Positions 7,721 to 58,518 of a stretch of 64,000 nucleotides of DNA are shown piece by piece. Below the pieces are notes generated by a model. That model saw nothing but the letters and a program-made list of their open reading frames with translations, was not told the origin of the DNA and searched no databases. A program made the translations under genes and the position numbers. Position 1 is the stretch's first letter, and each line of letters starts with the position of its first letter. Origin of the DNA: Emiliania huxleyi CCMP1516 (lineage: Eukaryota); the NCBI RefSeq assembly GCF_000372725.1, contig NW_005201412.1, positions 124,001 to 188,000 of the forward strand, given 5' to 3'.

Positions 7721-8075
7721 ACACACAACGTGGTGGGTGGAGAAGAAGAAGAAAACGGAAATGCACATCACTCCAGAGCGAGTTGGCATGAGGGTTGCAG
7801 CGAGAATCGNNNNNNNNNNNNNNNNNNNNNNNNNNNNNNNNNNNNNNNNNNNNNNNNNNNNNNNNNNNNNNNNNNNNNNNNNNNNNNNNNNNNNNNNNNN
7901 NNNNNNNNNAGGGTGGAAACCCATCCCTTCGGATGCAGCGGCATTGTGCGGGAAGGGGGCGAGGAGCTTCGGGTTGCCGGGCGGACCAGCGGGACGGTGA
8001 ACCAAACTACCCCTTAAAAGGTGAATGGCGCTTCTCCATGGGGCGGAACAACACCCCCTTCCTCAACTGCCCCAC

Positions 8076-21121: not shown

Positions 21122-23329
21122 GTTGCGCTGGTGCTGCTCGTCGCGGCGCACGTGCTTGCTTGCCCCTTCACAAAGGTCGAGGAGAGCTTCAACCTCCAGG
21201 CTCCCCACACCGACCCACACCGACCCACACCGACCCAGATTGCCCCACACCGCCCCAGATCGCCCCAGATCGGACTGCAGCCCTTGCGGCTCAGGCCCGA
21301 GAGCGGGAGGCGGCAACCAGCAGCGGCTGACGACTCGCAAACCTCACAATGTTCCGAGCCTGGGCCTTGCCTAGTGCGGACACCTCACCCCTCTGACGCT
21401 GTCTCGCCGAGCGTCTCCCGGCAGTGGCACGCTGCTGCCCGCCCACACCTCTCTTCTCCCTCTCCCCCTCCCTCTCCCCCTCCCTCTCCCCCTCCCTCTC
21501 CCCCTCCCTCTCCCCCTCCCTCTCCCCCTTCCTCTCCCCTCCCGCAGGCTGTCCACGACCTCCTCTTCCACCGCACCGACATCGCCCAGTACGACCACCA
21601 CGCCTTCCCGGGTGACTTCCTAGACACCTCCGAGACACTTCCCGTCCCACCCCCGGGCCACGCAGGCGTCGTGCCTAGACACTTCCGAGACACTTCCGAG
21701 ACGCCTCCCCTCCCACGCCACCCGCGGGCCACACAGGCGTCGTGCCGCGCACATTCGTCGGCGCGCTCCTGCTCGCCGCCGCCTCTGCGCCGGCCGTGCT
21801 CGCGCTGCAGCTCGCCGAAGCGCCGAAGCTGTACGCGCAGGTCGCCGTCCGCGTCACTCTCGGGCTCGCATCCGCCGCCGCGACGGCGCGAGTACACCGG
21901 GCTGTGGCGCGCCGCTTCGGTCGGCAGAGCGGGCTCGCCTTCCTCACGCTGTCGCTGGTGCAGTTCCACCCTCTCTTTTACGGCTCGCGCACGCTGCCAA
22001 ACACGTTTGGCGTCCTCGCCTCGTCGCTCGCCACCGCGGCGTGGCTCGAGGGGCGGCACCAGGCCGCACTCTCCACCCTGACGGTCCGCAGAGCCCCTCC
22101 CCCCGCCGAGCCCCTCCCGAGCCGCCAAGGCCTCGAGCCGCCAAGGCCTCGAGCCTCCAAGGGCGCCTCCTCTCCACACGCCGCGCCGCCTGCTCAGGTC
22201 GGCACCGTCATCTTCCGCTTCGACTTGCTGCTGCTGCTCGCGCCGCTCACCCTCCTCGTCGCCGCGCGGAGGCAGCTGCCGCTCGCCACCATCGCCGCCA
22301 CAGGCATCGGCTCGGGCGCCGCCGCGCTGCTGCCCACTCTGCTGCTCGACTCGCTCCTGTGGCGCCGCCCGCTCTGGCCGGAGGGGGAGGTGCTGCTTGC
22401 AAACACGGTCGGCAACATGAGCGCGAACTACGGCACATCGCCCGCCGGGTGGTACTTCTACTCGGCGCTGCCGCGCGCACTCTCGCTCGCCTACCCGCTC
22501 GCGCTCGCCTCCCTGCCGCTCGTGCCGCGCGCGCGCGAGTACGTCGGCGTCGCTCTGTGCTTCGTCGCGCTCTACTCGCTGCTGCCGCACAAGGCGATTC
22601 TGATAGTCATCACCTGTGTGACTTCACTGCCACTGTTCGGATCCCTGCTCTCTGCTGCCGCACAAGGAGCTCCGCTTCATCCTCTACGCGGCGCCGCTCC
22701 TCAACGCGGGCGCCGCCGCCGCCCTCGCGCACCTCGTCGCGCGCCTCCCGCCGCGGAACGCAAAGACGGCTGGCCGCCGCACCGCCGCCGTGCTCGGCCG
22801 CGCCGCCATCGCCGCGAGCCTCGCGGGCAGCCTTGCGCTCGCGTGCTGCTTCACCGCTGCGGCGCGGCTCAACTACCCCGGCGCCCACGCCCTGCTCGCT
22901 CTCCACGCGTCGTCGCCTCCCCGCGGGACGCGCGGGCCTCGCGTGCACGTCGGTGTCGAGGCGGCCATCTCCGGCGTCTCGCGCTTCCTCGAGCTGCCTC
23001 CTCCGTGGCAGTACTCGAAGGCCGAGGGGCTCGCCCCGGCGCAGCTCACCCGCTTCTCGCACCTGCTCACTGGCGCCAACGACGACGCCACGCGCGACCT
23101 GCCAGGCCCCCGCCCCACGGCCGCGCCTCTCCCGGCCCTGCCGCCCCTCTCACTTGCTCGCCTTGGAGTAGGCTTCGAGCTCGCACACGTCGAGAGAGGC
23201 TTCACGCGCGTGGCGATGCGGCCGCCTTTCCTGCTCACCGAGCCGAAGATCAACGTGCTGCGCCGCCGCAAGGAGGGGGCGGTGGGGCGCGCCGCCGCCG
23301 CCGCCACCGAAGGCGACTATTTCCTGTGA
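21122..23329 (+). CDS. ALG12: Dol-P-Man-dependent alpha-1,6-mannosyltransferase (GT22), multi-exon
   Basis: PFTKVEESFNLQ|AVHD, YDHHAFPG|VVPRTFVG, FYGSRTLPNTF, WPEGEV, LYSLLPHK|ELRF, NYPG, GVSRFL. Confidence 0.92.
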
Positions 23330-23785: not shown

Positions 23786-25835
23786 TCACGCCCTCACGTC
23801 ACCGTGAGCACGCCACTCCCACTCCCCGAAGCCCCCTCGCCCGCTGAAGATGCGGCCGGCGGACGTCGCCAGGCGGACCAGGAAGAAAAGGAGGATGCAG
23901 ATCCAGACGGAGGACACGTCCGGGCGGAGCGAGAGGGCGATCCCGGTCAGCCAGCCGATGGCTACGTGCACAGGAGAGGGCTGGGGTGAGGAGGCGTGGT
24001 AAAAGGTGGGAGCGACGGGTGAGAAGGCGCCACCGATCGCGGTGGAGAGCGTCGCGAGCGCGAGGTACTTGTACGACAGCCCGGCCCCGAGCAGGACGGC
24101 CTCGCAGAGCGCGTTCGGTGCGACGAGCGGCGTGCAGAGCGCGGCCCAGCCGAAGAGGCGGCGCGCGCTCTCTCGCGTGGCCGGGTCGGACGGGATGAGG
24201 AAAGAGGACGCAGGGCCGGCCAGCGAGAGCAGCAGGAGCGCGGTCGCGCCGCCGAGTACGCCGGCACGGCGCAGCAGCCGCAGCAGCAGCGCGCGTGCGC
24301 CGTGCAAGTCGCCGCGCGAGATGCGGCGCGAGCAGAGGACCTGCCCGGCGACGGCGGGCGCCTCAGCCGCGAGGACGAGGAGGAGCCACGCCTGCGGCGG
24401 CTCTCGGCACGGACGCGTCATGGACGTGTCGCGTGTCCCGCGAGGCGGCGAGGGAGAGGCGCCTTGAGCGCCACCACGAGCCGTGAGGAGGTGTCCAGGA
24501 GGTGTCCAGAAAGTGTCCAGAAAGTGTCCAGACAGTGCCCAGGAGGTGTCCAGGAGGTGTCTAGGAAGGCGCCTTGAGCGCCACCCCGTGCGCGGCGATG
24601 GCGGACGGCCCGAGCCGCCGTGCGACCGTCGACGCGATATAAACCCAGCAGCCAAGGACGGCGCTGGTGCGGGTCAGAGTCGCCGCGCTCGTGCCCGCCA
24701 GCCGGCGCCGCGCCGCCGCCTCCTCCTCCGCCGCCTCCTCCGCCGCCTCCTCGCCGCCAGGGCTCCCCGCGGCCGGCGCTAGTGCAGAGGCGGCGGCAGC
24801 GGCGGCCGCGGCGGGAACGGCGGAGGCGGGGTCGGAGGCGGCGGCGGAGGGAGGGCGCGAGAAGAGCTGGCGGTGGAGGGAGCGGAGCAGCAGGCAGCAG
24901 GCGACGACCTGGGATGCGCCCGTGGCGGTGGCGGCGCCGGTGACGCCGAGTCGCGCCGGCCAAATCATCAGTCCTGGGTCGAGCAGCAGGTTTGCGAGCG
25001 AGGCGACCAGCCCCGCCCGCAGAGGCGCGCTCGTGTCGCCCATTCCCCGGAAGATGCCCTCGCTCGCAGACAGGGCGAGCGCCGCCGGGAGGGCGAGCGC
25101 GCGCATGCGAGCGTACGCGAGGGCATCCGGGTGCAGCGGCGAGCCCACCGGAGCGCCCATCAGCCCGACGCACCACGGCGCCGCAGGCCCCGCCAGTAGC
25201 AGAGTGAGGAAGGCGCCGACGAGAACTGCGAGCTGCAGCGTCCGCCGCGCGAACGCCACGGCCGCCGGCCGACGCCCCTGCGCGAAGAGCCTGACGAGAG
25301 TGGACGAGGCGCTCTCCCGCAGCGCGAGCGAGGCGGCGATGCAGAGCGTGAAAATCTCGCTGCTCGCCGCCACCGCGCCCAGCGCTACCGAGGAGCACGT
25401 TCGGCCGACGAAGAGCGTGTCAACGACGCCAAGGAATGGGTCCATGAGCGTATTTAGCAGCGCAGGCACGGCGATGGCGAGGATCTCCGCGTTCTCGGCC
25501 GCCCGCGCGGCGGCTCTCGCCGCGAGGGAAGCCTCCTCCGGAGCTTCTTCCGTCAGGCTGGGCGCAGTGGCGCAGCAACGGACGCCCCCCGCTCTCGGTG
25601 GCCGCTCGGGAGGCGGCCCTTGCCAGCGACGGAAGGCGCAGCAGCCGCCTCCAGCACGAGCGGTGGCCTCCAGCGCGAGAACAGGAGGGCGACCGAGAGC
25701 GGGAGGCGTCCGTTGCCAACACTGGAGACCGCACAGCAATGGAGCGGAAGATGCCGCTGTGAGCCGGCTGCTGCTGAGGCCTAGGCTGCCACCAGCAAGT
25801 AACAGCACCAGACGAGCAGGAACCAGATTGTACAT
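23786..25835 (-). CDS. MATE (DinF-like) efflux transporter with a targeting leader, multi-exon
   Basis: EILAIAVPA...MDPFLGVVDTLFVG, EGIFRGMGDT.APL, NLLLDP...GVTGAATAT, AIAAHGV. Confidence 0.88.
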
Positions 25836-28800: not shown

Positions 28801-31800
28801 TCACTGCTTTTGCGCCACCGGGATGCACTCGCGCGCGTGCGTGGGCCAGTGGGCGTGCTGGCAAGCCACGCCGCAATAGGCCGTCACTTGGCAGCGGCCG
28901 CAGACGTTGAGCTGCACGAGGGTGCCTTTGCAGTTGGCGCAAACCTTCACCGCCTGATGCTGCGCCTGCTGCTGCGCAAGCTGCTGCGCCTGCTGCTGCG
29001 CCTGCTGCTGCTGCCGCGCCTGCTGCTGCTGCCGCGCCAGCTGCTGCTGCCGCGCCAGCTGCTGCGCGCTCTCCGCCAGCTGCTGCGCGCTCTCCGCCAG
29101 CTGTGCCGACTGCTGCTCCGTGGGCGGACCCTGTCCGCCCTGCGGCCGCGGCACACCCTGCATCTGCGCTGCAATCATCTGGAGGGTGGGGGCCGGCGGG
29201 GGTTAGAAAGGGGGAGGGGTGGGTCAAAGGGGAGTCGCGAGACCGGCAGCGCCTGCTGCGCCCCTTGCTGCCCGTGCTGCATCTGCTGGGCAATCACGCT
29301 CGCGTCTGGCATCGGCACGCTCCCTGCGGAGGACCCCAACCCCGGTGCCACCGGCATCGGCATCGGCGGCCACGGCACCTGGACTTGGGCCTGGCTGGGC
29401 GCCCAAGCAGAGTACGGCGCTGCCGACGCGGCGGTGGGTGGGGGAGCGGGCGGCGTGGCGGCGGGCGGCGCGGCGGGCGGCGCCGGGCGGTTGGCGGCGG
29501 CCGTGGCGCGTCGCTCAACTGCGGCGATGCCAGCCTCGGCCGCCGCCTTTGCCACGCCGATCGCCTCCAGCAGCTGGGCGAGGGCAGCCTCCCGGTGCGG
29601 GTCTGCGGGCGGCTGGCTCGCCGCCGCCGGAGCCGCGGCCGGCGCGCTCTCGCCGCCCGCCGCCGCGAGGAAGTCGGAGGATGACCCGGCCGCCGGGGGG
29701 GCACCGGCGGCGGCGGGCGCGGCGGCGGGCGCGGCGGCGGGCGCGGCGGCGGTGGCGGACGCAGCGGCCGGTGCAGCGGCGCCAATCGGCTTCCATCCGT
29801 CTCTGAGCTCGAGGAAGAGCCGGTCGAGCGCCTATCTCTGGCGATCTCGGGTGATCTCGGGTGATCTCGAGCTCGAGGAAGGGGCATGCCGAGCGCCTGG
29901 TGCTGCTTCGCGAGCAGCGCGCGCGCGTCGGCGTGCTGCTTGGCGGCGAGCTCCTCGCGCATCTTGCCGACCGTCGCCTCGAGCTGCGCCACCTCGGCGA
30001 GATGCGCCTCCCCCAACGAGCGCCGCTCGCTCGTCTGCTCGCGCCCGAGCGTCTGCACGCGCCGCACCATCGCCGTCCCCTGCATCGCGCGCTCCTTCTC
30101 GATCCGCTTCCGCTCGCGCGCCGCCGCGCGCTGCGCCTCGTCGGCGCGCTTCCGCTCGCGCTCCTCGTCGCGCGTGCGCGCCTTCTCGACCGCCTCGCGC
30201 CGCTGCCGCTCCTTCTCGAGCCGCGCCTACCGGGCACGTGCCGCGGACGCGTCCCGGACATGTCCCGGGCCTGACCCTCGCTCTCCCCGCCGGGCCGCGC
30301 CTCGGCGCGCCGGCGCTCCTCCTCCTCGAGCCTGCGCTTGGCCGTCTCCTTCTCGTCGGCGCAGTCGCCGCACACGAAGAGAGTGGCGTTCTTGGACGGG
30401 TCGAAGCCGCGCGAGATCATCGGCTCGAGCAGCTGCGGCGTGGGGTCGACGCGGGCGAGTCCCTGCGGCCAGCAGTCGAAGCAGTACGCGGTGGGGCAGT
30501 CGGTGCAGCGGAAGAGCATGCCTCCGGCGGTGGAGACGGTGCGGCCGCACTCGAGGCACGAGTGCCACGGGCAAGTCCACTGCCCCTTGGGCAGCTTGGT
30601 CAGGCTCAGGCACTCGAGGTGGTACACGCGCGGGCACAGGCTGCACTCGAGCAGCTCGCCGCCGTCGGCGCAGTGGAAACACGTGTCCTCGTGGCGCAGC
30701 GGCTGCTTCCGACGCTGCCCGCGCGGCAAAGTCGGCTCGTACCGCCCCGCCTGCTCGCGCCGCCGCTTCGGCCGACGCAACGCCGCCGGCAGATTCTCCT
30801 CGTGGTCGTCGCCTCCCTCGCCGCCACCGCCGTCGCCGCCGTCGCCCCCATTTGGGGCGGCGGCGTCCGCGCTCGCACCACCGGCGTCAGTCGCACCGCC
30901 GGCGCCGCTGCTGGCGCCTCCGCCGCCTCCCTCACCGCCGTCCTCGAGGGCCCGCCCCGCAGCTGTCGCCTCCGCCGCCGCCTCCGCCGCCTCTGCCGGC
31001 GCGGGAGGAGCGGGCGGCGCAAGCGGCAGCTGCGGCGCGGGCGGCGGCTGCGGCTTGGGCGGGGCCGGTGGGGGCGAGGGCGGGTCGGGCAGCTCGTAGG
31101 AGGGGAGGTCGGGGCCTCCGTCCTCGAGGGGCGGCAGCTTGGCGTCCGCCAGCGCGCGGCCGAGGATGGCGCGGACCTCGCCGTCGGAGAAGCCCGCGCC
31201 CCGCTGCAGCGCGGACTCGCCCTCGTCCTCGGCCGCCAGCGCGCGAGAGGCGCTCTGCAACATCTCGAAGAGCTCCGACTTCGCCACCTTCTCCTCGGCG
31301 CCCGCCTGCGCCTCGGGATCGTCGCGCGCGGGCTCGTTGTCGCGGTTGACTGCCTGGCCGAGCGCCTAGGGAAGGTTCCAAGAAGGTTCCGAGAAGGCTC
31401 CTAGAGCAGGTTTGACTGCCTGGCCGAACGCCTGCTTCTGGCGCGCGCGCAGCAGGATCTTCTCCTCGACCGACGCCTTTGTGACGAAGCGGAAAACGCG
31501 GACCGGCCTCGTCTGGCCGAGCCGGTGCGCGCGGTCGGTCGCCTGCAGGTCACCGAGTCCGGAAGTGTCTAGGGAGGGTCTAGGAAGGGTCTAGGAAGGG
31601 TCTGGGAAGTGCGCGGTCGGTCGCCTGCAGGTCGATCTGCGGGTTCCAGTCCGGCTCGAAGAGGACGACCGCGTCCGCCGTCGCGAGGTTGATGCCGACG
31701 CCGCCGGCGCGGGTCGAGATCAGGTACGCGAAGTGGGGCGAGCCGGGCGCGTTGAACTCGCGCATGTCGAGCTCGCGCTGGATGCGGTTGGTCGAACCGT

Positions 31801-34600
31801 CCATCCGCAGGTGCGGCCCGAAGGCGCGCCAGCGCAGGAAGTCCTCGAGCAGGTCGAGCGTCTGCGTGAAGGAGGAGAAGAGGAGCACGCGAGAGCCGTT
31901 CGCCTTGAGCCGGTGCAGCAGGCTGTCGAGGACGGCGAGCTTGCCTACAGGGAAGGGTCTCGGAAAGGGTCCGAAAAGGCGCCCCGCTCCCGCCCATGCC
32001 CAGGCCGCCGAGCGATGCCCGAGGAGGCGACCAGCGCCAAGCCGGAGAGAGCGCGAAGCTCCGCCTGCGCCTCGCGCGCGCGCCGCAGCCGCTCCTCCTC
32101 CCTCGCCTCCTCGTCCTCGTCGCTCGACTCGTCGCCGCCCCCGCGCTCCCCAAAGTCCACGAAAGGAATCTCGGCAGGCGCAAGCCCGCCGCCGCCGCTT
32201 CCGTCGCCGCCGCGGCCGCGGCTGCCATTGGAGGAGCCGGGCACGCGCGGCAGCAGGATGCGCGGGTGGTTGCACACCTTGCGCAGCTGCGTGATGATGA
32301 TCTGCAGCTGCGAGGTGGAGAGAAGAGACTGCGACTCGAGGTCGCGGTCAAGCAGCCGCGCGTACCAGCGAGCCTACACGCGGAAAGGCGATGCGACGTC
32401 ACCCTCACCTGCCGCGGACCTGCGCCGCTCGCCTCCCGCGGGCGGGCCTGCAGGCTGCTCATCGGGCACGACACGTCCGCCTCGTGCTTGGGCGGCAGCG
32501 TCACCTGCAGCAGGGGTGCGGGGAGGAGGGGGGGAGGGGGGGGGGGGGGGGGCCAATTGGGGTGCGGGAAAAGGCCTTGCAAGCGGCTCGTGTTTGGGTT
32601 ACGGCAGGGTCCCCCCGTTTGCCCTGAGCCACTTCCTAGACACTTCCTAGACACTTCCTAGACACTTCCTAGACACTTCCTAGACACTTCCTAGACACTT
32701 CTAGGAGCGTCACCACGTCTGCCTTGAGCCGGCGCAGCATGAAGGGCGCGAGCAAGTCGCGCGCCTTGCAGAGGGACGGAGGAGTTAAGCGCAACTATGA
32801 TTTGACACCGTGATTGACGGAAGAAGGTCTCGCGCCTTTGCGATGAGGTCCGTGTCTGCGACCAGCTTGCCGGTGTCGAAGCCCGCGTCGAACTGGTCCG
32901 AGGTGGTGAAGAGGGAGGGGAGGAGGAAGCGGAGCAGCGCCCAGAGCTCGTGGAGGTTGTTTTGGAGCGGCGTGCCCGTGATGAGCAGCCGGAAGTTTGC
33001 GCGCACGCGAGAGAGGCCGATGTGCAGCTTGGAGGCCTTGGTGGGGAGGGGGGGAGGGGAGGGAGGGGGGGAGGGGGGGGGGGGGCACCAAGCGGCGGGT
33101 GAGGGCCTCCGGCCCACGCTCTGCCTCGTTCTTGAGGTTGGCAAGAAGTGTCCAGGAAGTGTCTAGGAAGTGTCTCGCCTCGTTCTTGAGGTTGTGTCGA
33201 GGAGGTGTCTAGGAAGTGTCTAGGAAGTTGTCTCGCCTCGTTCTTGAGGTTGTGCGCCTCGTCGACGATGAGAGCCGACCAGCAAGAGACGTCCTCCGTG
33301 AAGAAGCCCTCGGCAGCCTGTGGAGCAGCGGCGCGGCTGTGCAGGTGCGGCTGTGAAGGTGCGGCGGCCTTCTCTTACTCCGGGGCCGAGAAGGGCTGGG
33401 GTCAGGGGTCCGGAGAGAGACTCGCCTTGAAGGCCTCGTACGTGCCGGGAGGTATCTAGATAGTGTCTAGGAAGTGTCTAGGAAGTGTCTAGGAGGTGTC
33501 TAGGAAGTGTCTAGGAGGTGTCTAGGAGTGGTCGCCTTGAAGGTCTCGTACGTGGTGATGAAGAGGTCGTACTCTGCGTACACCACGTCCGCCCGCTCGA
33601 GAAGCGCGTTCCGCTCGTGCGCAGAGCCGTGCAGCTTGAAGAAGGTTAGCTCGGGCGTGAAGCGCTTGCACTCGTTTGCCCAGTTCTGATACACGGCGAG
33701 CGGCGCGACGACGAGGGCGGGGCCCGTGAGGCCCCGCACCTGGAGGAGGGGCGGCGGCGGGGCGCGTGGCAAGAGAGGCGGCGGGGCGCGCGGCAAGAGA
33801 GGCGGCGGGGCGCGCGGTGGGGGGGAGGAGGGCGCCGCTTGCCTTCTTGAGGAAGGCGAGCATCGTCAGGGTCTGCAGCGTCTTGCCGAGCCCCATCTCG
33901 TCGCCGAGGATGCCTCCGATCCCTGACTCGCGCGCCTCGACCAGCCAGTTCACTCCCTCGACCTGCAGACAGCGGCCGCGAGTCGAGAGGCTGGCCACGT
34001 TGGTGGATCGCCGACGCCACCGGGAGGCCCACACCCCGCACTCGCGCCCGCTACCCGTGCCCCCCCCCCCCCCCCTTTTAGCCCCCCCCCCCCCCCCGCC
34101 AGCCGCCCCGCCCCTCAGGGCAGGTGCCGCCGCGCGCGCGCCTGGTAGTCTCTCAGCGTCGCCGTCACAAATGAGGGCTGGGTGTCGACGAGCCGCTCTT
34201 CCTGTTTGGGCGAGTCATTCGAGGCGCGCGAGCCCGCCCCGCCCCGCCCCTTGCCCTTCTCCTTGCCTCGCGCCGCGCGCCGCACCTCCTCCAGCTTCGC
34301 GGCGGGCACAAATGGCTCGAGCAGCGCCGCTTTCGCGAGTAGTGTGGTGCTGCGCCGGTTGGCGAGGGCGCGTCCGTCGGCCGAGAGGGCCTTCTGGGAT
34401 GCCACGAAAGCGTCGTGCCGCTCCCGCTCCTCCCCTTCGAGCTCCTCTAGGGCGAGGCACGACTCGCATCGCCAGTCAACCGGCAGCGCTTGCTGCGAGC
34501 TGAGGCCGAGGCACTGCTTGTGGAAACGTCTGCCGCATGGAGAGCAGCGCACCTCGAGGTCGTCCTCGCCACGGCAGATTGAGCACCACGCAGCCGGCAT
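28801..34600 (-). CDS. SNF2-family (ISWI/CHD-like) chromatin remodeller with PHD fingers and a C-terminal MYND finger, many introns
   Basis: N-terminal [73 protein letters not shown] plus C5HCH-like (HEDTCFHC...CPWHSC...CPTAYC); MYND CANC...CGRC..YC...CQ..HW..H...C. Confidence 0.93.
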
Positions 34601-39391: not shown

Positions 39392-41413
39392 ATGCCTGCG
39401 CCAGTCGCGAGACGCGTGGTGGTAGTCGCCGGGCCGACCGCAGTGGGCAAGTCGGCGCTCGGCATGCGACTGTGTGAGGCGCTCCCGGGCGAGCTGGTCT
39501 CTGTCGACTCGGTGCAGGTGAGAGCGACGGCGGACGCCGGCTTACACGTGGGTGCACAGCACTCGGGTCACACATGCACGAGAACGCGACAGCACTCAAA
39601 ATGCCCGTCGCCACACACACCAGCCGGCATGGTGGCACCCTGGGCTCAGGTGTACCGCGGTCTTCAGATCGGCGCCAACAAGCCGTCGGCGGTGGAGCGG
39701 GCGCGCACGGCGCACCACCTCATCGACGTCGCCGAGCTGAGCGACGACTACACCGCCGGCACCTTCTACGCCGACGCACTCACCGCTGTCGACGAGGTCG
39801 TGGGCTGTGGCAGGGGCGGAGCGGAGCCAACAGGCCGAGCGCGAGATTCGAGGCCCGCCAACCCCCGGCCGCAGGTCCTCTCGCGCGGCAAGACGCCCGT
39901 CCTCGTCGGAGGGACGAGCATGTACCTCCGGTGGCTCGTGCACGGCCGCCCGACAGCGCCTCGATCCGACCCAGCGGTCGCCGCGGCGGCGCGCGACGCG
40001 CTGCAGCCATACCAGGAGGCGGCAGACTGGGAAGGCGGGCTTGCGCTGCTGCGCGCGCTCGACGGCCCTCGCGCCGCTCAGCTGTCGGTCCGAGTCTCTC
40101 TCCTCGCCTGCGCGCCTTCCGGGCCGAGGCTCGGCCGCCAGCCGCAGCTCTCGCGTCGCTAGGCAAACGACTGGTACCGCCTGCACCGCGCGCTCGTGGT
40201 GGCGATGCAGACGCGCTCGCAGGCGGCAGCGCTGCCCCCGCCTCCCGACGACTCTGGGCTCGACGCGCTGTGAGCCCCCCGCCCCCGGGAGGCGGGGGCA
40301 GCGCTGCGCTCCGGCGAGCAGAAGGCGCGCCAGCGCCGCCCGTCGAACGAGTGGTAGAGCATCCGCCACGGGCCGCCCGTCAGCGCCGGAGGGAGCACCC
40401 GCGGCCAGGAAGCAAACAGGCCTTCCGCCGCGTCGGCGCTGACGACGGGCTCGGGCTCGCGCGCCCAGCTCAGCCCGCCGTCCTCGCTCGTCGCGCGCCC
40501 GATTCGCATCCGGATGCCGGNNNNNNNNNNNNNNNNNNNNNNNNNNNNNNNNNNNNNNNNNNNNNNNNNNNNNNNNNNNNNNNNNNNNNNNNNNNNNNNN
40601 NNNNNNNNNNNNNNNNNNNNAAAGAAGGGAGGTAGACGACCGCACTCCAAGTACTCCAAATGCCCGGCATGACGAAGAATAGTTGATGATCTAACTACAT
40701 GGCCGGTAGTGAATGAACAGACCATGTGAATGAGTAAATTGCCCCCATCCCCTCCCGCTCCCCCCATCCCCTCCCGCCCCCCATCCCAGGCGCTCGAGTA
40801 CCTGCTGCGGCCCTGCTACGCGCCCCGCGACGCCGACGCCCTCTCCTCCTTCGTCCACGCCTTCGCCGCCGCCTCGCGCCGGTACAGCAGCAGTCGAACT
40901 GGTCCCTGACCTGTCCCTGACACGTCCCTGACACGTCCCGATAGGTACGCGCAGCAGCAGACAAAGTGGTTCCGCTCCGAGCCCTCCTTCGAGTGGGTCG
41001 ACGTCGACTGGTCCGCCCCCGAGGCTGCGGCGGAGCGCGTGCTCGCCTCGGTGCGCAAGCCGCGGCTCGAGCACGAGGACGACCTCGCGGCGCCGCGCCA
41101 GGCGGAGATGCGCGCCGTCAAGCCAGACGAGGGCAAGGCGATGAAGCGGTACGTCGAGCGGCACGACGCGCTCGAAGACTCGGCGGTGTGCGAGGCGCTG
41201 CTGCGCGAGGCGGACGCATGCTGCGAGGCGCTGCAGCACGCGCGTGCCGACCTGCTCGCCGCCGACGAGGCGCTCGCCGAGCGCTACCCGTGGCACGCCG
41301 CGGACGCCGGCGGCGAGGGCGGGACGGGGAGTGCGGCACGCGCAGCTCAAAGAATGTCCGGCTGGAGTGCGGCACGCGGAGCCGAGGCCAGGGAGCCCGG
41401 CGGTGCTTCGTGA
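39392..41413 (+). CDS. miaA: tRNA dimethylallyltransferase (isopentenyltransferase), multi-exon, spans an N gap
   Basis: AGPTAVGKS, VSVDSVQ|VYRGLQIGANKP, HHLID, VGGTSMYL, NDWYRL.RAL, RYAQQQTKWFR. Confidence 0.9.
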
Positions 41414-55920: not shown

Positions 55921-58518
55921 TCAGATGGAGGACATGGCCTGCTTGCGCACCTCCCGCGCCGCCCCCTCGCGCGCCAGCCCCGCCGCCTTGGCCGCCACCC
56001 GCCGCGTGGCCGCCTCGGACGGCACCTCGCCCATCAGCGAGCGGGCCCACCCCTCGAGCAGCAGCACGCGCGCCTCTGCGCGGCCGAGCCCGCGCGCCTG
56101 CAGTAGAACAGACCACCTCCCACATCTCCCTCTATCTCCCCATATCTCGAGGAGGGGAGGCGCCTGCAGGTAGAAGACCATCTCGTCGTCGAGGTCGGCG
56201 ACGGTGGCCCCGTGCGTGCACACGACGTCGTCCGTCAGGATCTCGAGGTTGGGCGAGATGTCGACGCGCGCCGAATCTGAGAGGAGCAGCGAGCGGCAGA
56301 GCTGGTTGGCGGTGGTGTTGTCCGACCCGTGCGGCACCTGCACCGCCCCGCGAAACACAACCTGCGAGCGGCGGGGGACGGGGCGGGTGGTGGGGGGGGA
56401 GAGGGCTCGCAAGCGGCTGCACCGCGGGGCGGAGGGATCCCTCGCGCGGCCGGCGAGGGCGTTGCGCTGCTCCTGCTCGGAGGAGCCTGCAGGCCGACAT
56501 GGAGGGCGTGAGAGGGGTGCGCTGGTGCGCTGGGTCGGCTGTTGCGCTGCGGATCAGAGTTGCAGTCGGGAGAGACGTGCCGCACGGCGGAGTGGAGGTC
56601 GAGCAGCTGCGACTCGGAGCCGAGGGCGATCCCGTTGAGGGAGGCGTGCGAGTGCCTCCCCTCGAGCCGCACCGCGAGGTTGACGCGAGAGAGGCGCCTG
56701 GCGCATACGGTATGGGTTAGGGTATGGGTTAGGGTTAGGGTCAGGGTTAGGGTTAGGGTCAGGGTCAGGGTTAGGGTTAGGGTTAGGGTTAGGGTATGGG
56801 TTAGGGTTGACGCGAGAGAGGCGCCTGGCGCAGGACGCACAGCCGCAATCACAGTGTGTGTGTGTGTGCAAGGGGAACAAGAGCCGAGGTCTGCGCGGGA
56901 GAGGGGCGCCCTCCTGGAGATATGGGGAGATATGGGGAGATATGTGGAGATATGGGGAGATATGGGGAGATATGGGGAGAGGGGCGCCCTCCCGACTGGA
57001 CGATGTTCGCGTCGTAGCGAGCGCCGGCCGCGAGGGTTGCGAGCACCTGGCGGGCGGGGCCGAGGGGCGGGGTGGAGGGGCGGGGCCGAGGGGCGGGGTC
57101 GAGGGGCGGGGTCGAGGGGCGGGGCCGAGGGGCGGGTCGTCGGCCGGCGGCCTTGGAGCGTGCCGGGCGGGCTGGCGCGAGCAGCGAGTGTGTGGGGGGC
57201 GTGAAGGGGTGCGAGGGGGTGCGAGGGGGTGCGAGGGGGCGGGAGGGGGTGCGAGCAGCGCCGAATCGACGTGGACAGCGCCGTCGGACTGCTCCTGCGG
57301 GCCGAGGCGCGGCGACGCGTCAGGGGCTGCGGTGCGGGGCTTGGGGCTGCGGTGTTCGAGGCGGGCAGCTGGTGCGTGGTGTCTCGGCGACCTCTCGGCG
57401 ATCTCTCGGCGCTATCGCGGCTCCACCTCGGCGGGCAGCTCCTGCAAGCACGCATACTATCCCGGCAACCTCTCGGGGGTCTCTCTGCAGCTGCCTGCAG
57501 GTATGCGTGCGTGAGCGAGGCATTCTCGCCGAGGCGCAGCCGCGAGAGGCCGTTGCAGAAATAGGCGCCGCGGCCGGCGTACTGCTGGAGCAGCGAGAGG
57601 GAGGCGCCGTCGCCGAGCCAGAGGGAGAGGTTGGGGTGGCTGGCGGCGAGCTGCGGCGAGGCGCCGGCCTCGGCGCCGGAGTCGGGGTAGGAGGGTGTGG
57701 AGAGGAGGATGAGGCGGAGCGTGTCTACAGCGACGCCGCTCGGCACCTGGCGGGGAGGAGGGGCGGGGTTGGGGGGGGGGGGGGGGCCAGGGGGGGTGAC
57801 GGGCGGGCAGGGCGGGAGGGCGGGGGAAAGGCGGGAGGAGGCGGGAGGGGGCCGGAGGAGGCCGAAGAAAGGGCGGGAGGAGGCGGAGGCGCACATAGAC
57901 GCACGCAACGTCGGAGAGGGCCGCCTGGTTGAGCGCGGCAAAGGTGTGGCAGCCGAGCTCCGTGCGCGGGTCCGCCTCCCGCTCCGGGATCTCCCGCAGC
58001 GACTCCAGCACCGCCTCCCTCACCTCCGGCGGCACCTGCTCGAGCGGGCCTGCGTACGCGCCGCCGCCGAGGGAAGAGGTGTCGCTGAGGTCGGCGCTGT
58101 AGACGCCGTCGACAAAGACCAGCCGCGGCCGCGCCGCCGCCGCCGCCTCCTCCTCCTCCTCCACGTACCCCGCCACGAGCTCGCCCACCCGGCCCGACGG
58201 GGCACCGAGTGTCGCGCCATAGAGCAGAGAGAGGTCGGTGCGGCGCCACGCCTCCTGCTTGCGCCCCGGGCGCCGCGCCGCGAGCACAACGTCGGTCGCC
58301 TCCGACCGCACCTCATCCAGCAGACCTGACGCCACAGAGCCACGCGCCGCCACCGCCGATCCAAGCCAGTCGTCCACCGCAGATTGAGTGAGCGTGCCGG
58401 CCTCGGCGCAGCGCACCGCGGCGCGGCCACGCGCAGACCCGCACAAGGGCGCCCCTGGCGCCGGCCGCTGCGAAGGCAGGTACGCGGCGCCGACAGAGGC
58501 GATGCAGGCTGTCAGCAT
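55921..58518 (-). CDS. sufD: Plastid Fe-S cluster assembly protein SufD, multi-exon
   Basis: EAWRRTDL, LVFVDG, FAALN, RLSRVNL, VVFRG, QLCRSLLLS, PNLEILTDDVVCTHGATVADLDDEMVFYLQ|ARG. Confidence 0.93.
56706..56804 (+). repeat. Interstitial telomere-like (TTAGGG)n with variants inside a sufD intron
   Basis: TTAGGG/TCAGGG/TATGGG hexamers flanked by an exact 28-bp direct repeat. Confidence 0.92.

What the first reader, a model, noticed from the sequence alone, without database searches (positions are those of the whole stretch)
56678..56832. Telomere-type (TTAGGG)n inserted at a sufD splice acceptor with an exact 28-bp duplication
Seen: GGTTGACGCGAGAGAGGCGCCTGGCGCA occurs twice around ~100 bp of TTAGGG and variants, and the tract ends in GGTT shared with the second copy. 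The duplicate contains CAG|GC on the sense strand, so the insert can be spliced out. Established: interstitial telomeric tracts with TSDs are attributed to telomerase acting at breaks. Inference: telomerase-like healing produced intronic sequence in an essential gene, the clearest mechanistic clue for the wider pattern.
Basis: partly seen in the sequence, partly recalled or inferred. Interest (0 to 1): 0.75.

Follow-up and report, generated by a model that had tools for sequence, protein, structure and literature searches.

The report
Telomere-repeat patch inside algal intron
In the alga Emiliania huxleyi, 99 bases of chromosome-end repeat sit between two copies of a 28-base splice junction inside an intron of an iron-sulfur assembly gene; this is likely the scar of a break patched by telomerase, and look-alike patches in other marine DNA likely make whole new introns.

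Summary
In detail: an exact 28-bp duplication (56678-56705, 56805-56832) surrounds TAC plus exactly 16 GGTNNG units, inside intron 4 of an E. huxleyi-type sufD. TTAGGG is this species' telomere repeat. Contigs enter the tract in 3 of 4 DNA runs. One run also holds the 32-nt contig predicted for an empty allele, and an RNA run shows tract-copy-tract. All 3 RNA runs show the clean splice junction. Here the insert lengthened an existing intron; it did not create one. The anatomy is general. In GC-rich marine contigs 34 of 152 tracts have a flanking duplication of 15 bp or more (control 1 of 760). Tracts start at GG|TTAG in 18 of 24 cases (17% expected), and facing tracts run G-then-C 18 to 1. In one dynein gene, seven such inserts behave as precise introns; L076 is a second E. 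huxleyi-type case. Telomerase addition at a staggered break fits best (0.55). Against it: 6 of 16 units are variants, the priming end is out of register, and non-telomeric 10-11-mers share the anatomy. This scan found telomere-repeat introns before on other marine DNA. My paper searches found no description for haptophytes.

The parts
55921..58518 (-). sufD-like gene (SufBD core), 8 exons, 7 introns, 507 aa; N-terminal extension probably a plastid-targeting sequence (inference)
   Evidence: gene model and identity to P0074 and P0002; Pfam PF01458
56698..56987 (-). intron 4, 290 nt, GC...AG; holds the telomere-type insert at its 3' end and a 10-mer insert at its 5' end
   Evidence: RNA contigs of X13, X11, X15 stop at 56698 and continue with the upstream exon; frame check
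56678..56705 (+). 28-bp copy 1 (downstream copy on the sense strand): last 8 nt of the intron with the acceptor that adjoins exon 5, plus the first 20 nt of exon 5
56706..56804 (+). 99-bp insert: TAC plus 16 GGTNNG units; G-rich on +, C-rich on the sense strand, where it gives branch-point-like CTAAC/CTGAC words (nearest A at -20 and -32 from the acceptor)
   Evidence: junctions in DNA contigs
56805..56832 (+). 28-bp copy 2 (upstream copy on the sense strand) with a second AG at 56825-56826; its use would shift the frame by 127 nt; first 4 nt (GGTT) continue the repeat
56897..56992 (+). second insert of the same anatomy at the donor of the same intron: 18-bp duplication (56897-56914, 56975-56992) around 60 bp of a GGAGATATGG 10-mer, 6-nt overlap at the right junction
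56098..56163 (-). intron 7, 66 nt: degenerate 10-mer tract between two worn copies of a CAG|GC exon stretch; candidate intron born by the same process
   Evidence: local alignment of the two ends, boundaries; not checked against RNA

Best explanation
The element is a 99-base run of telomere-type repeats between two exact copies of a 28-base splice junction, lying inside an intron of sufD, and it is likely the scar of a staggered break whose G-strand end was extended by telomerase and then rejoined. Shown: the duplication, the tract, its GGTNNG register at both ends, the clean mRNA junction, and the same anatomy at many other loci. Inferred steps: (1) a break with cuts about 28 nt apart at the acceptor of intron 4; (2) the 3' end of the + strand was extended by 16 repeat cycles, starting at GG and ending at TTAG; (3) the new end annealed through GGTT to the other overhang and fill-in duplicated the 28 bp; (4) the allele survived because the C-rich strand is intronic and supplies branch-point words just before the downstream AG; (5) recombination between the copies gives one-copy and three-copy alleles. 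Where the duplicated target is exon sequence holding AG|GT or AG|GC, the same event would create a new intron without changing the protein.
For: Telomere repeat: TTAGGG in G. huxleyi; telomerase activity making it in the haptophyte Pavlova; one TERT-annotated gene for G. huxleyi in a supplementary table. Polymorphism: X8 holds a 63-nt contig entering the tract (depth 3.7) and a 32-nt contig of 2 flank bases + the copy + 2 unshown letters (depth 3.2), with neighbours ending at 56705 and starting at 56805, the pattern I noted as an empty-allele bubble before the call. Generality: 34 of 152 internal tracts in 40 of 44 non-redundant GC-rich loci have an exact flanking duplication of at least 15 bp versus 1 of 760 swapped flanks; 23 of 152 versus 0 of 760 at 20 bp; 4 of the 34 are themselves repeat-like. 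Start register: 18 of 24 inserts whose first unit lies within 6 nt of the left copy have exactly GG before it and none has GGG; uniform phase predicts 17% and 43% (P 5e-10); after CT it is 12 of 12, though four phases would give a usable AG. End at TAG in 11 of 23 versus 26% (P 0.02). Adjacent opposite tracts are G-then-C 18 times and C-then-G once, as expected if both broken ends were extended. L076, whose exon is 100% identical to a protein clustering with E. huxleyi AMP deaminase, has a 22-bp acceptor duplication around a 47-bp tract ending TTAG. In L067 removing 7 tract-plus-copy units, 5 of them not multiples of 3, restores one dynein reading frame.
Against: At this locus the left copy ends GCA and 3 non-repeat bases follow, so there is no in-register priming end, the test used for mammalian cases. 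6 of 16 units are variants beside a flawless duplication, and only 693 of 1227 units in the metagenome tracts are canonical (loci were selected on one variant). In the window 7 of the 8 clean repeat-filled duplications listed (leaving out one GGC-rich coding repeat) carry 10-11-mers, not TTAGGG. Splice selection could contribute to both the CTGG start and the G-then-C order. The statistics are post hoc, on loci picked by one pattern, several per contig and mostly of unidentified species. No haptophyte telomerase RNA template was found, so the match of GGTTAG to the enzyme's cycle rests on the recalled human enzyme. The empty allele could be a later deletion between the copies.
Confidence: 0.55

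Rival explanations
1. General break repair with copied filler: the 3' overhang invades an existing repeat array (subtelomere, another intronic tract, or a 10-11-mer array), copies part of it and rejoins by microhomology. Telomerase is not involved; TTAGGG is one of several abundant donors.
For: One mechanism covers TTAGGG and the 10-11-mer inserts, which share duplication length (median 16 bp in both classes) and often a right-junction overlap. It explains variant units as copied from worn donors. Interstitial tracts are abundant in haptophytes. Telomere capture is a recognised alternative.
Against: Copying from a random point of an array does not predict a fixed GG start without primer homology (18 of 24, none GGG), nor G-then-C order 18 to 1.
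Confidence: 0.25
2. Target-primed reverse transcription of C-rich intron RNA by a retroelement enzyme: an excised intron ending ...CUAACCAG pairs with a nicked target ending CT and is copied, giving a CTGGTTAG start and a variable-length duplication, so the introns propagate themselves.
For: 12 of 12 starts after CT read CTGG; in a few the T is not in the target copy (L043, L067, L071). Variable duplication lengths resemble non-LTR insertion (recalled). It would carry variants along.
Against: 6 further GG starts follow A, G or T rather than CT; the focal insert starts TAC-GG, not CTGG; no shared non-repeat sequence among inserts was apparent by eye; two-sided G-then-C inserts need two events.
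Confidence: 0.12
3. A plain tandem duplication of the junction came first and the repeat grew in place by slippage from the GGTT seed.
For: The second copy begins GGTT; three-copy arrays show that these sites are unstable (9 of 42 curated inserts; window 33123-33254).
Against: Four bases cannot seed a six-base unit, and the same telomere hexamer would have to arise independently at dozens of unrelated targets.
Confidence: 0.05
4. Assembly artefact joining telomeric reads into the gene.
For: The tool masks the tract, so no listed contig spans it.
Against: Independent runs from different studies enter the tract at the same base; the same anatomy occurs in independent assemblies.
Confidence: 0.03

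Closest known systems
Short interstitial telomeric sequences inserted at repaired double-strand breaks in rodents and primates (Nergadze et al. 2007, PMC2246262; passages read)
   Same: Short TTAGGG tract at an internal site, empty allele elsewhere, duplication of the target in some cases, attributed to telomerase.
   Different: There duplication is a minority outcome (6 of 130 rodent, 4 of 25 primate loci) and priming ends are usually in register; here long duplications are common, this priming end is not in register, inserts sit at splice sites and form or extend introns, and non-telomeric repeats share the anatomy.
Intron gain by tandem genomic duplication of AGGT and by double-strand-break repair (review PMC3443670, passages read; Daphnia paper PMC4202315, search listing only)
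   Same: A duplicated AG|GY supplies donor and acceptor, so the intron is precise; direct repeats flank the new intron.
   Different: The filler here is a telomere-type or 10-11-mer repeat with fixed polarity that also supplies branch-point words; 'telomer' does not occur in that review.
Pervasive interstitial TTAGGG tracts of Calcidiscus leptoporus (PMC13518057; passages and supplement passages read)
   Same: Same repeat, same phylum, frequent internal tracts.
   Different: In the passages seen they are described as an assembly obstacle and possible rearrangement scars, with no link to introns, duplications or a mechanism.
Introners and introner-like elements (PMC3443670 passage; otherwise recalled)
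   Same: Many introns of similar make-up in one lineage, some with target duplication.
   Different: No shared element sequence or inverted termini seen; lengths of tract and duplication vary from insert to insert.

Membership tests
Telomerase-inserted short interstitial telomeric sequence | Tract is the organism's telomere repeat | tested here: met
   10 of 16 units canonical; TTAGGG reported for G. huxleyi; chromosome ends not examined by me
Telomerase-inserted short interstitial telomeric sequence | Empty orthologous or allelic site exists | tested here: met
   32-nt contig and neighbouring contig ends in X8; the two deciding letters are not shown and the state may be a reversion
Telomerase-inserted short interstitial telomeric sequence | 3' end of the break in register with the repeat | tested here: not met
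   left copy ends GCA, then TAC, then GG-TATG; homology 0 nt. Across 47 telomere-type rows 22 have at least 1 nt
Telomerase-inserted short interstitial telomeric sequence | Young tracts are nearly pure | tested here: not met
   6 of 16 units are variants although the duplication is exact
Telomerase-inserted short interstitial telomeric sequence | Dependence on TERT, or co-inserted telomerase RNA sequence | not testable with these tools
   no genome held; no haptophyte telomerase RNA found in the paper checked
Intron gain by duplication or break repair | New intron at a previously continuous exon position | tested here: not met
   at this locus the insert extends an existing intron. In L067 removal of 7 units restores a continuous frame against homologues, which fits gain, without RNA or an outgroup gene
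Intron gain by duplication or break repair | Duplicated target holds a proto-splice site | tested here: met
   CAG|GC in both copies; 29 of 42 curated targets versus 255 of 860 random windows
Introner / introner-like element | Family of near-identical intron sequences with shared ends and fixed short target duplication | tested here: not met
   exact duplications of about 11-49 bp, tracts of varying length and unit make-up; judged from listings, no dedicated alignment

The most novel reading that the evidence does not exclude
In haptophytes telomerase is a routine break-repair polymerase and a main source of new introns: it writes GGTTAG cycles onto staggered breaks, the duplicated AG|GY gives the splice sites and the C-rich strand gives the branch point; the 10-11-base intron repeats of Emiliania are the output of the same enzyme or a relative with a second RNA template.
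Probability: 0.25. Interest if true: 0.9.

Novelty: new variant of a known kind. Interest (0 to 1): 0.68.

Why it matters
How new spliceosomal introns arise is a long-standing question, because most gained introns show no source. Here the source sequence, the duplicated target, the strand polarity and a start register are all readable, in a cultured model alga with one-copy, two-copy and probably three-copy alleles of one site in public data. That makes the question testable by a genome census and by breaks induced with and without TERT. It would also explain why haptophyte genomes are full of internal telomere tracts and intronic repeats. The single locus alone is a modest finding: an insert that lengthened an existing intron.

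Tried and rejected
Viral-contig scans: one pattern gave two loci of one unrelated record, left out of all counts; the 10-mer pattern gave nothing. 56 of 111 metagenome loci with GC under 0.55 were dropped before the counts; one search looked at them only coarsely. De-duplication missed L070/L103, counted twice; one of the 18 G-then-C rows (L106) is separated by a target copy. Generic left-versus-right junction homology showed no asymmetry for telomere-type rows (means 1.1 and 1.0 nt), so right-junction microhomology is not a general feature of that class. The first gene model had four wrong intron ends, fixed; the end-to-end alignments used the uncorrected ends and did not separate most sufD introns from controls, so old duplications at every intron are not claimed. 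The length column is a script slip and was ignored. A fixed start phase for the 11-mer inserts was considered and dropped: the six printed are mixed. Missing cover of 56780-56867 in X6 and of the intron in the RNA runs is not used. RNA contigs cannot tell a filled allele using the downstream AG from an empty allele. Read et al. 2013 is not held; a guessed DOI gave an unrelated paper. Passages of PMC4580454, PMC11347835, PMC2784329 and PMC12480563 held nothing on telomere-type introns.

Full report
Observation. The 28-mer occurs at 56678-56705 and 56805-56832 only, with no extension on either side, around 99 bp. The spacer is TAC plus exactly 16 units in GGTNNG register: 10 GGTTAG, 3 GGTCAG, 3 GGTATG; the second copy starts GGTT. 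Chance expectation is about 8e-9. It is the only TTAGGG tract in the 64 kb.

Gene and organism. The first exon finds an MMETSP protein (98%) and an E. huxleyi CCMP1516 protein (100% over 38% of the query), both PF01458. An 8-exon model gives 507 aa, 494 of 508 columns identical to a G. oceanica transcript protein. The insert lies in intron 4 (56698-56987, GC-AG). Each copy holds the last 8 nt of the intron and the first 20 nt of exon 5. Use of the upstream AG would add 127 nt and shift the frame, with no stop before the normal end. The C-rich sense strand of the tract has 13 CTAAC or CTGAC words, the nearest A at -20 and -32 from the downstream AG, while the 76 nt ending at the upstream AG have none. 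TTAGGG is reported as the telomere repeat of G. huxleyi (10.1101/2024.05.26.595999, passages), of P. globosa (PMC11347835, passages) and as the telomerase product of Pavlova (PMC3622300, passages).

Public runs. 16 of 20 listed runs hold the gene; I laid 7 of them. Of four DNA runs, X1 and X6 have a contig running 30 letters past 56708 into the masked tract, X1 also has 32 letters before 56811, X5's contig ends at 56707 and X8's at 56705; no joint skipping the insert was listed (table cut). I noted X8's ends as a bubble of filled and empty alleles. The narrower laying then showed in X8 a 63-nt contig into the tract (depth 3.7) and a 32-nt contig covering 56676-56705 plus two unshown letters (depth 3.2), which is what a one-copy allele gives with 31-letter words. 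Only X8 among the DNA runs was seen at this resolution. In 3 of 3 RNA runs a contig stops at 56698 and continues with exon 4. These contigs do not show the allele they came from; X13 shares the 56597 T variant with the filled contig of X6, a weak link. X11 also has a 103-nt contig reading repeat, copy, TAC and 53 masked letters: a three-copy allele, a circle or a template switch. X5's end at 56707 is where such a junction would break a contig (inference). Three-copy arrays are common elsewhere (9 of 42), so the empty path may also be a reversion.

The window. The same anatomy, a duplication around a G-rich repeat, recurs with 10-11-mers at 21663, 24457, 31529, 33123, 33171, 33422 and at 56897, the donor of the same intron. 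TTAGGG is therefore the minority filler here.

Other DNA. 55 of 111 loci have GC of at least 0.55, 44 after de-duplication. They hold 152 internal tracts in 40 loci; exact flanking duplications of at least 15 bp occur in 34 of 152 versus 1 of 760 swapped flanks, and of at least 20 bp in 23 of 152 versus 0 of 760. Four of the 34 are repeat-like; the other 30 lie in 16 loci. 29 of 42 curated targets hold AG|GY on one strand versus 255 of 860 random windows. In L067, a dynein heavy chain gene, removing 7 tract-plus-copy units (6 telomere-type, 1 10-11-mer; 5 not multiples of 3) gives one frame against homologues, and each has AG|GC or AG|GT at its downstream copy. L076 is E. huxleyi-type: its exon is identical to P0077, whose cluster holds the CCMP1516 AMP deaminase; it has a 22-bp acceptor duplication around a 47-bp tract ending TTAG. 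The hosts of the other loci are not identified.

Mechanistic signatures. Of 33 single-unit curated inserts, 24 have their first repeat unit within 6 nt of the left copy; 18 of these have exactly GG before it and none GGG, against 17% and 43% for a uniform phase. After CT it is 12 of 12, although four phases would give a usable AG. The focal insert also starts GG after 3 nt and ends TTAG. Ends at TAG are 11 of 23 versus 26% (P 0.02). Neighbouring opposite tracts within 30 nt are G-then-C 18 times and C-then-G once (two rows are one locus). A fixed start without primer homology and head-to-head order are what addition of G-strand repeats to broken 3' ends predicts. That human telomerase adds GGTTAG per cycle is recalled; PMC3136441 (passages) only uses GGTTAG as the healed hexamer, and no haptophyte template was found (PMC8287931, passages). 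A supplementary table lists one TERT for G. huxleyi (PMC12480563; files 4, 13 and 14 were not searched). Against telomerase: no in-register priming end here, 6 of 16 variant units, 693 of 1227 canonical units overall, the 10-11-mer inserts, no general right-junction overlap in the telomere class, possible splice selection, and post hoc tests on pattern-selected loci.

Comparison. Closest are mammalian interstitial tracts at repaired breaks (PMC2246262, passages) and intron gain by AGGT duplication or break repair (PMC3443670, passages). It works like the first but fails two of its tests at this locus, so I do not file it as a plain member. Pervasive internal tracts are reported for C. leptoporus without a link to introns in the passages seen. 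Ten full-text searches found no paper on telomere-repeat introns with duplications in haptophytes; subscription papers, Read et al. 2013 and bioRxiv supplements were not seen. From memory, Read et al. noted 10-11-bp repeats in E. huxleyi introns. This scan has earlier AI notes of telomere-repeat introns in unidentified marine microbes, a fungus and a rotifer and of a duplication-flanked haptophyte intron; these are not independent support.

Verdict. A real, polymorphic, intronic telomere-type insert with target duplication, one case of a wide process. Telomerase addition at a staggered break is the best explanation (0.55), copied filler the main rival (0.25). New variant of a known kind; interest 0.68.

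Noticed in passing
window 24457-24585, 31529-31633, 33123-33254, 33422-33543, 21663-21746, 29805-29881: Duplication-flanked inserts of 10-11-mers (GGAAGTGTCTA, GGAGGTGTCCA and others); 33123-33254 has three target copies and two tracts. Source of these repeats unknown.
   Followed up: partly
window 56362-56439 (minus): Intron 6 of the model needs a GA donor (GA...AG, 78 nt, in frame without stop) to match P0074; not checked against RNA.
   Followed up: no
window 56487-56563 (minus): 77-nt GC-AG intron 5 is spliced in all three RNA runs, but X13 also has a contig across it unspliced (depth 233 versus 632), and MMETSP protein P0001 has an insertion of about 26 aa here: retention or alternative splicing.
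   Followed up: no
window 56885-56914 versus 56672-56705: The older 5' end of intron 4 resembles the start of exon 5, so the intron itself may have been born by an older duplication before receiving two further inserts.
   Followed up: partly
run X11, record 3 (window 56678-56708): Repeat-copy-repeat junction in an RNA library at depth 11, without a listed exon-to-tract or copy-to-intron contig; three-copy allele, excised circle or template switch.
   Followed up: partly
L003, L029, L067, L068, L070: GC-rich marine contigs with 7-15 telomere-type tracts in 2-6 kb, nearly every apparent intron built from them, with homogeneous runs of variants such as GGGCTA, GGGTTC, GGGTGA.
   Followed up: partly
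L076:1565-1620: A 12-bp duplication around a (GAGAA)n tract in the same E. huxleyi-type gene, suggesting still other fillers.
   Followed up: no
L026:2535-2571: A low-GC (0.45) locus with a 56-bp duplication around a telomere-type tract; host unknown.
   Followed up: no
window 7810-7909 and 40521-40620: Two 100-base N gaps: the window is a gapped scaffold.
   Followed up: no
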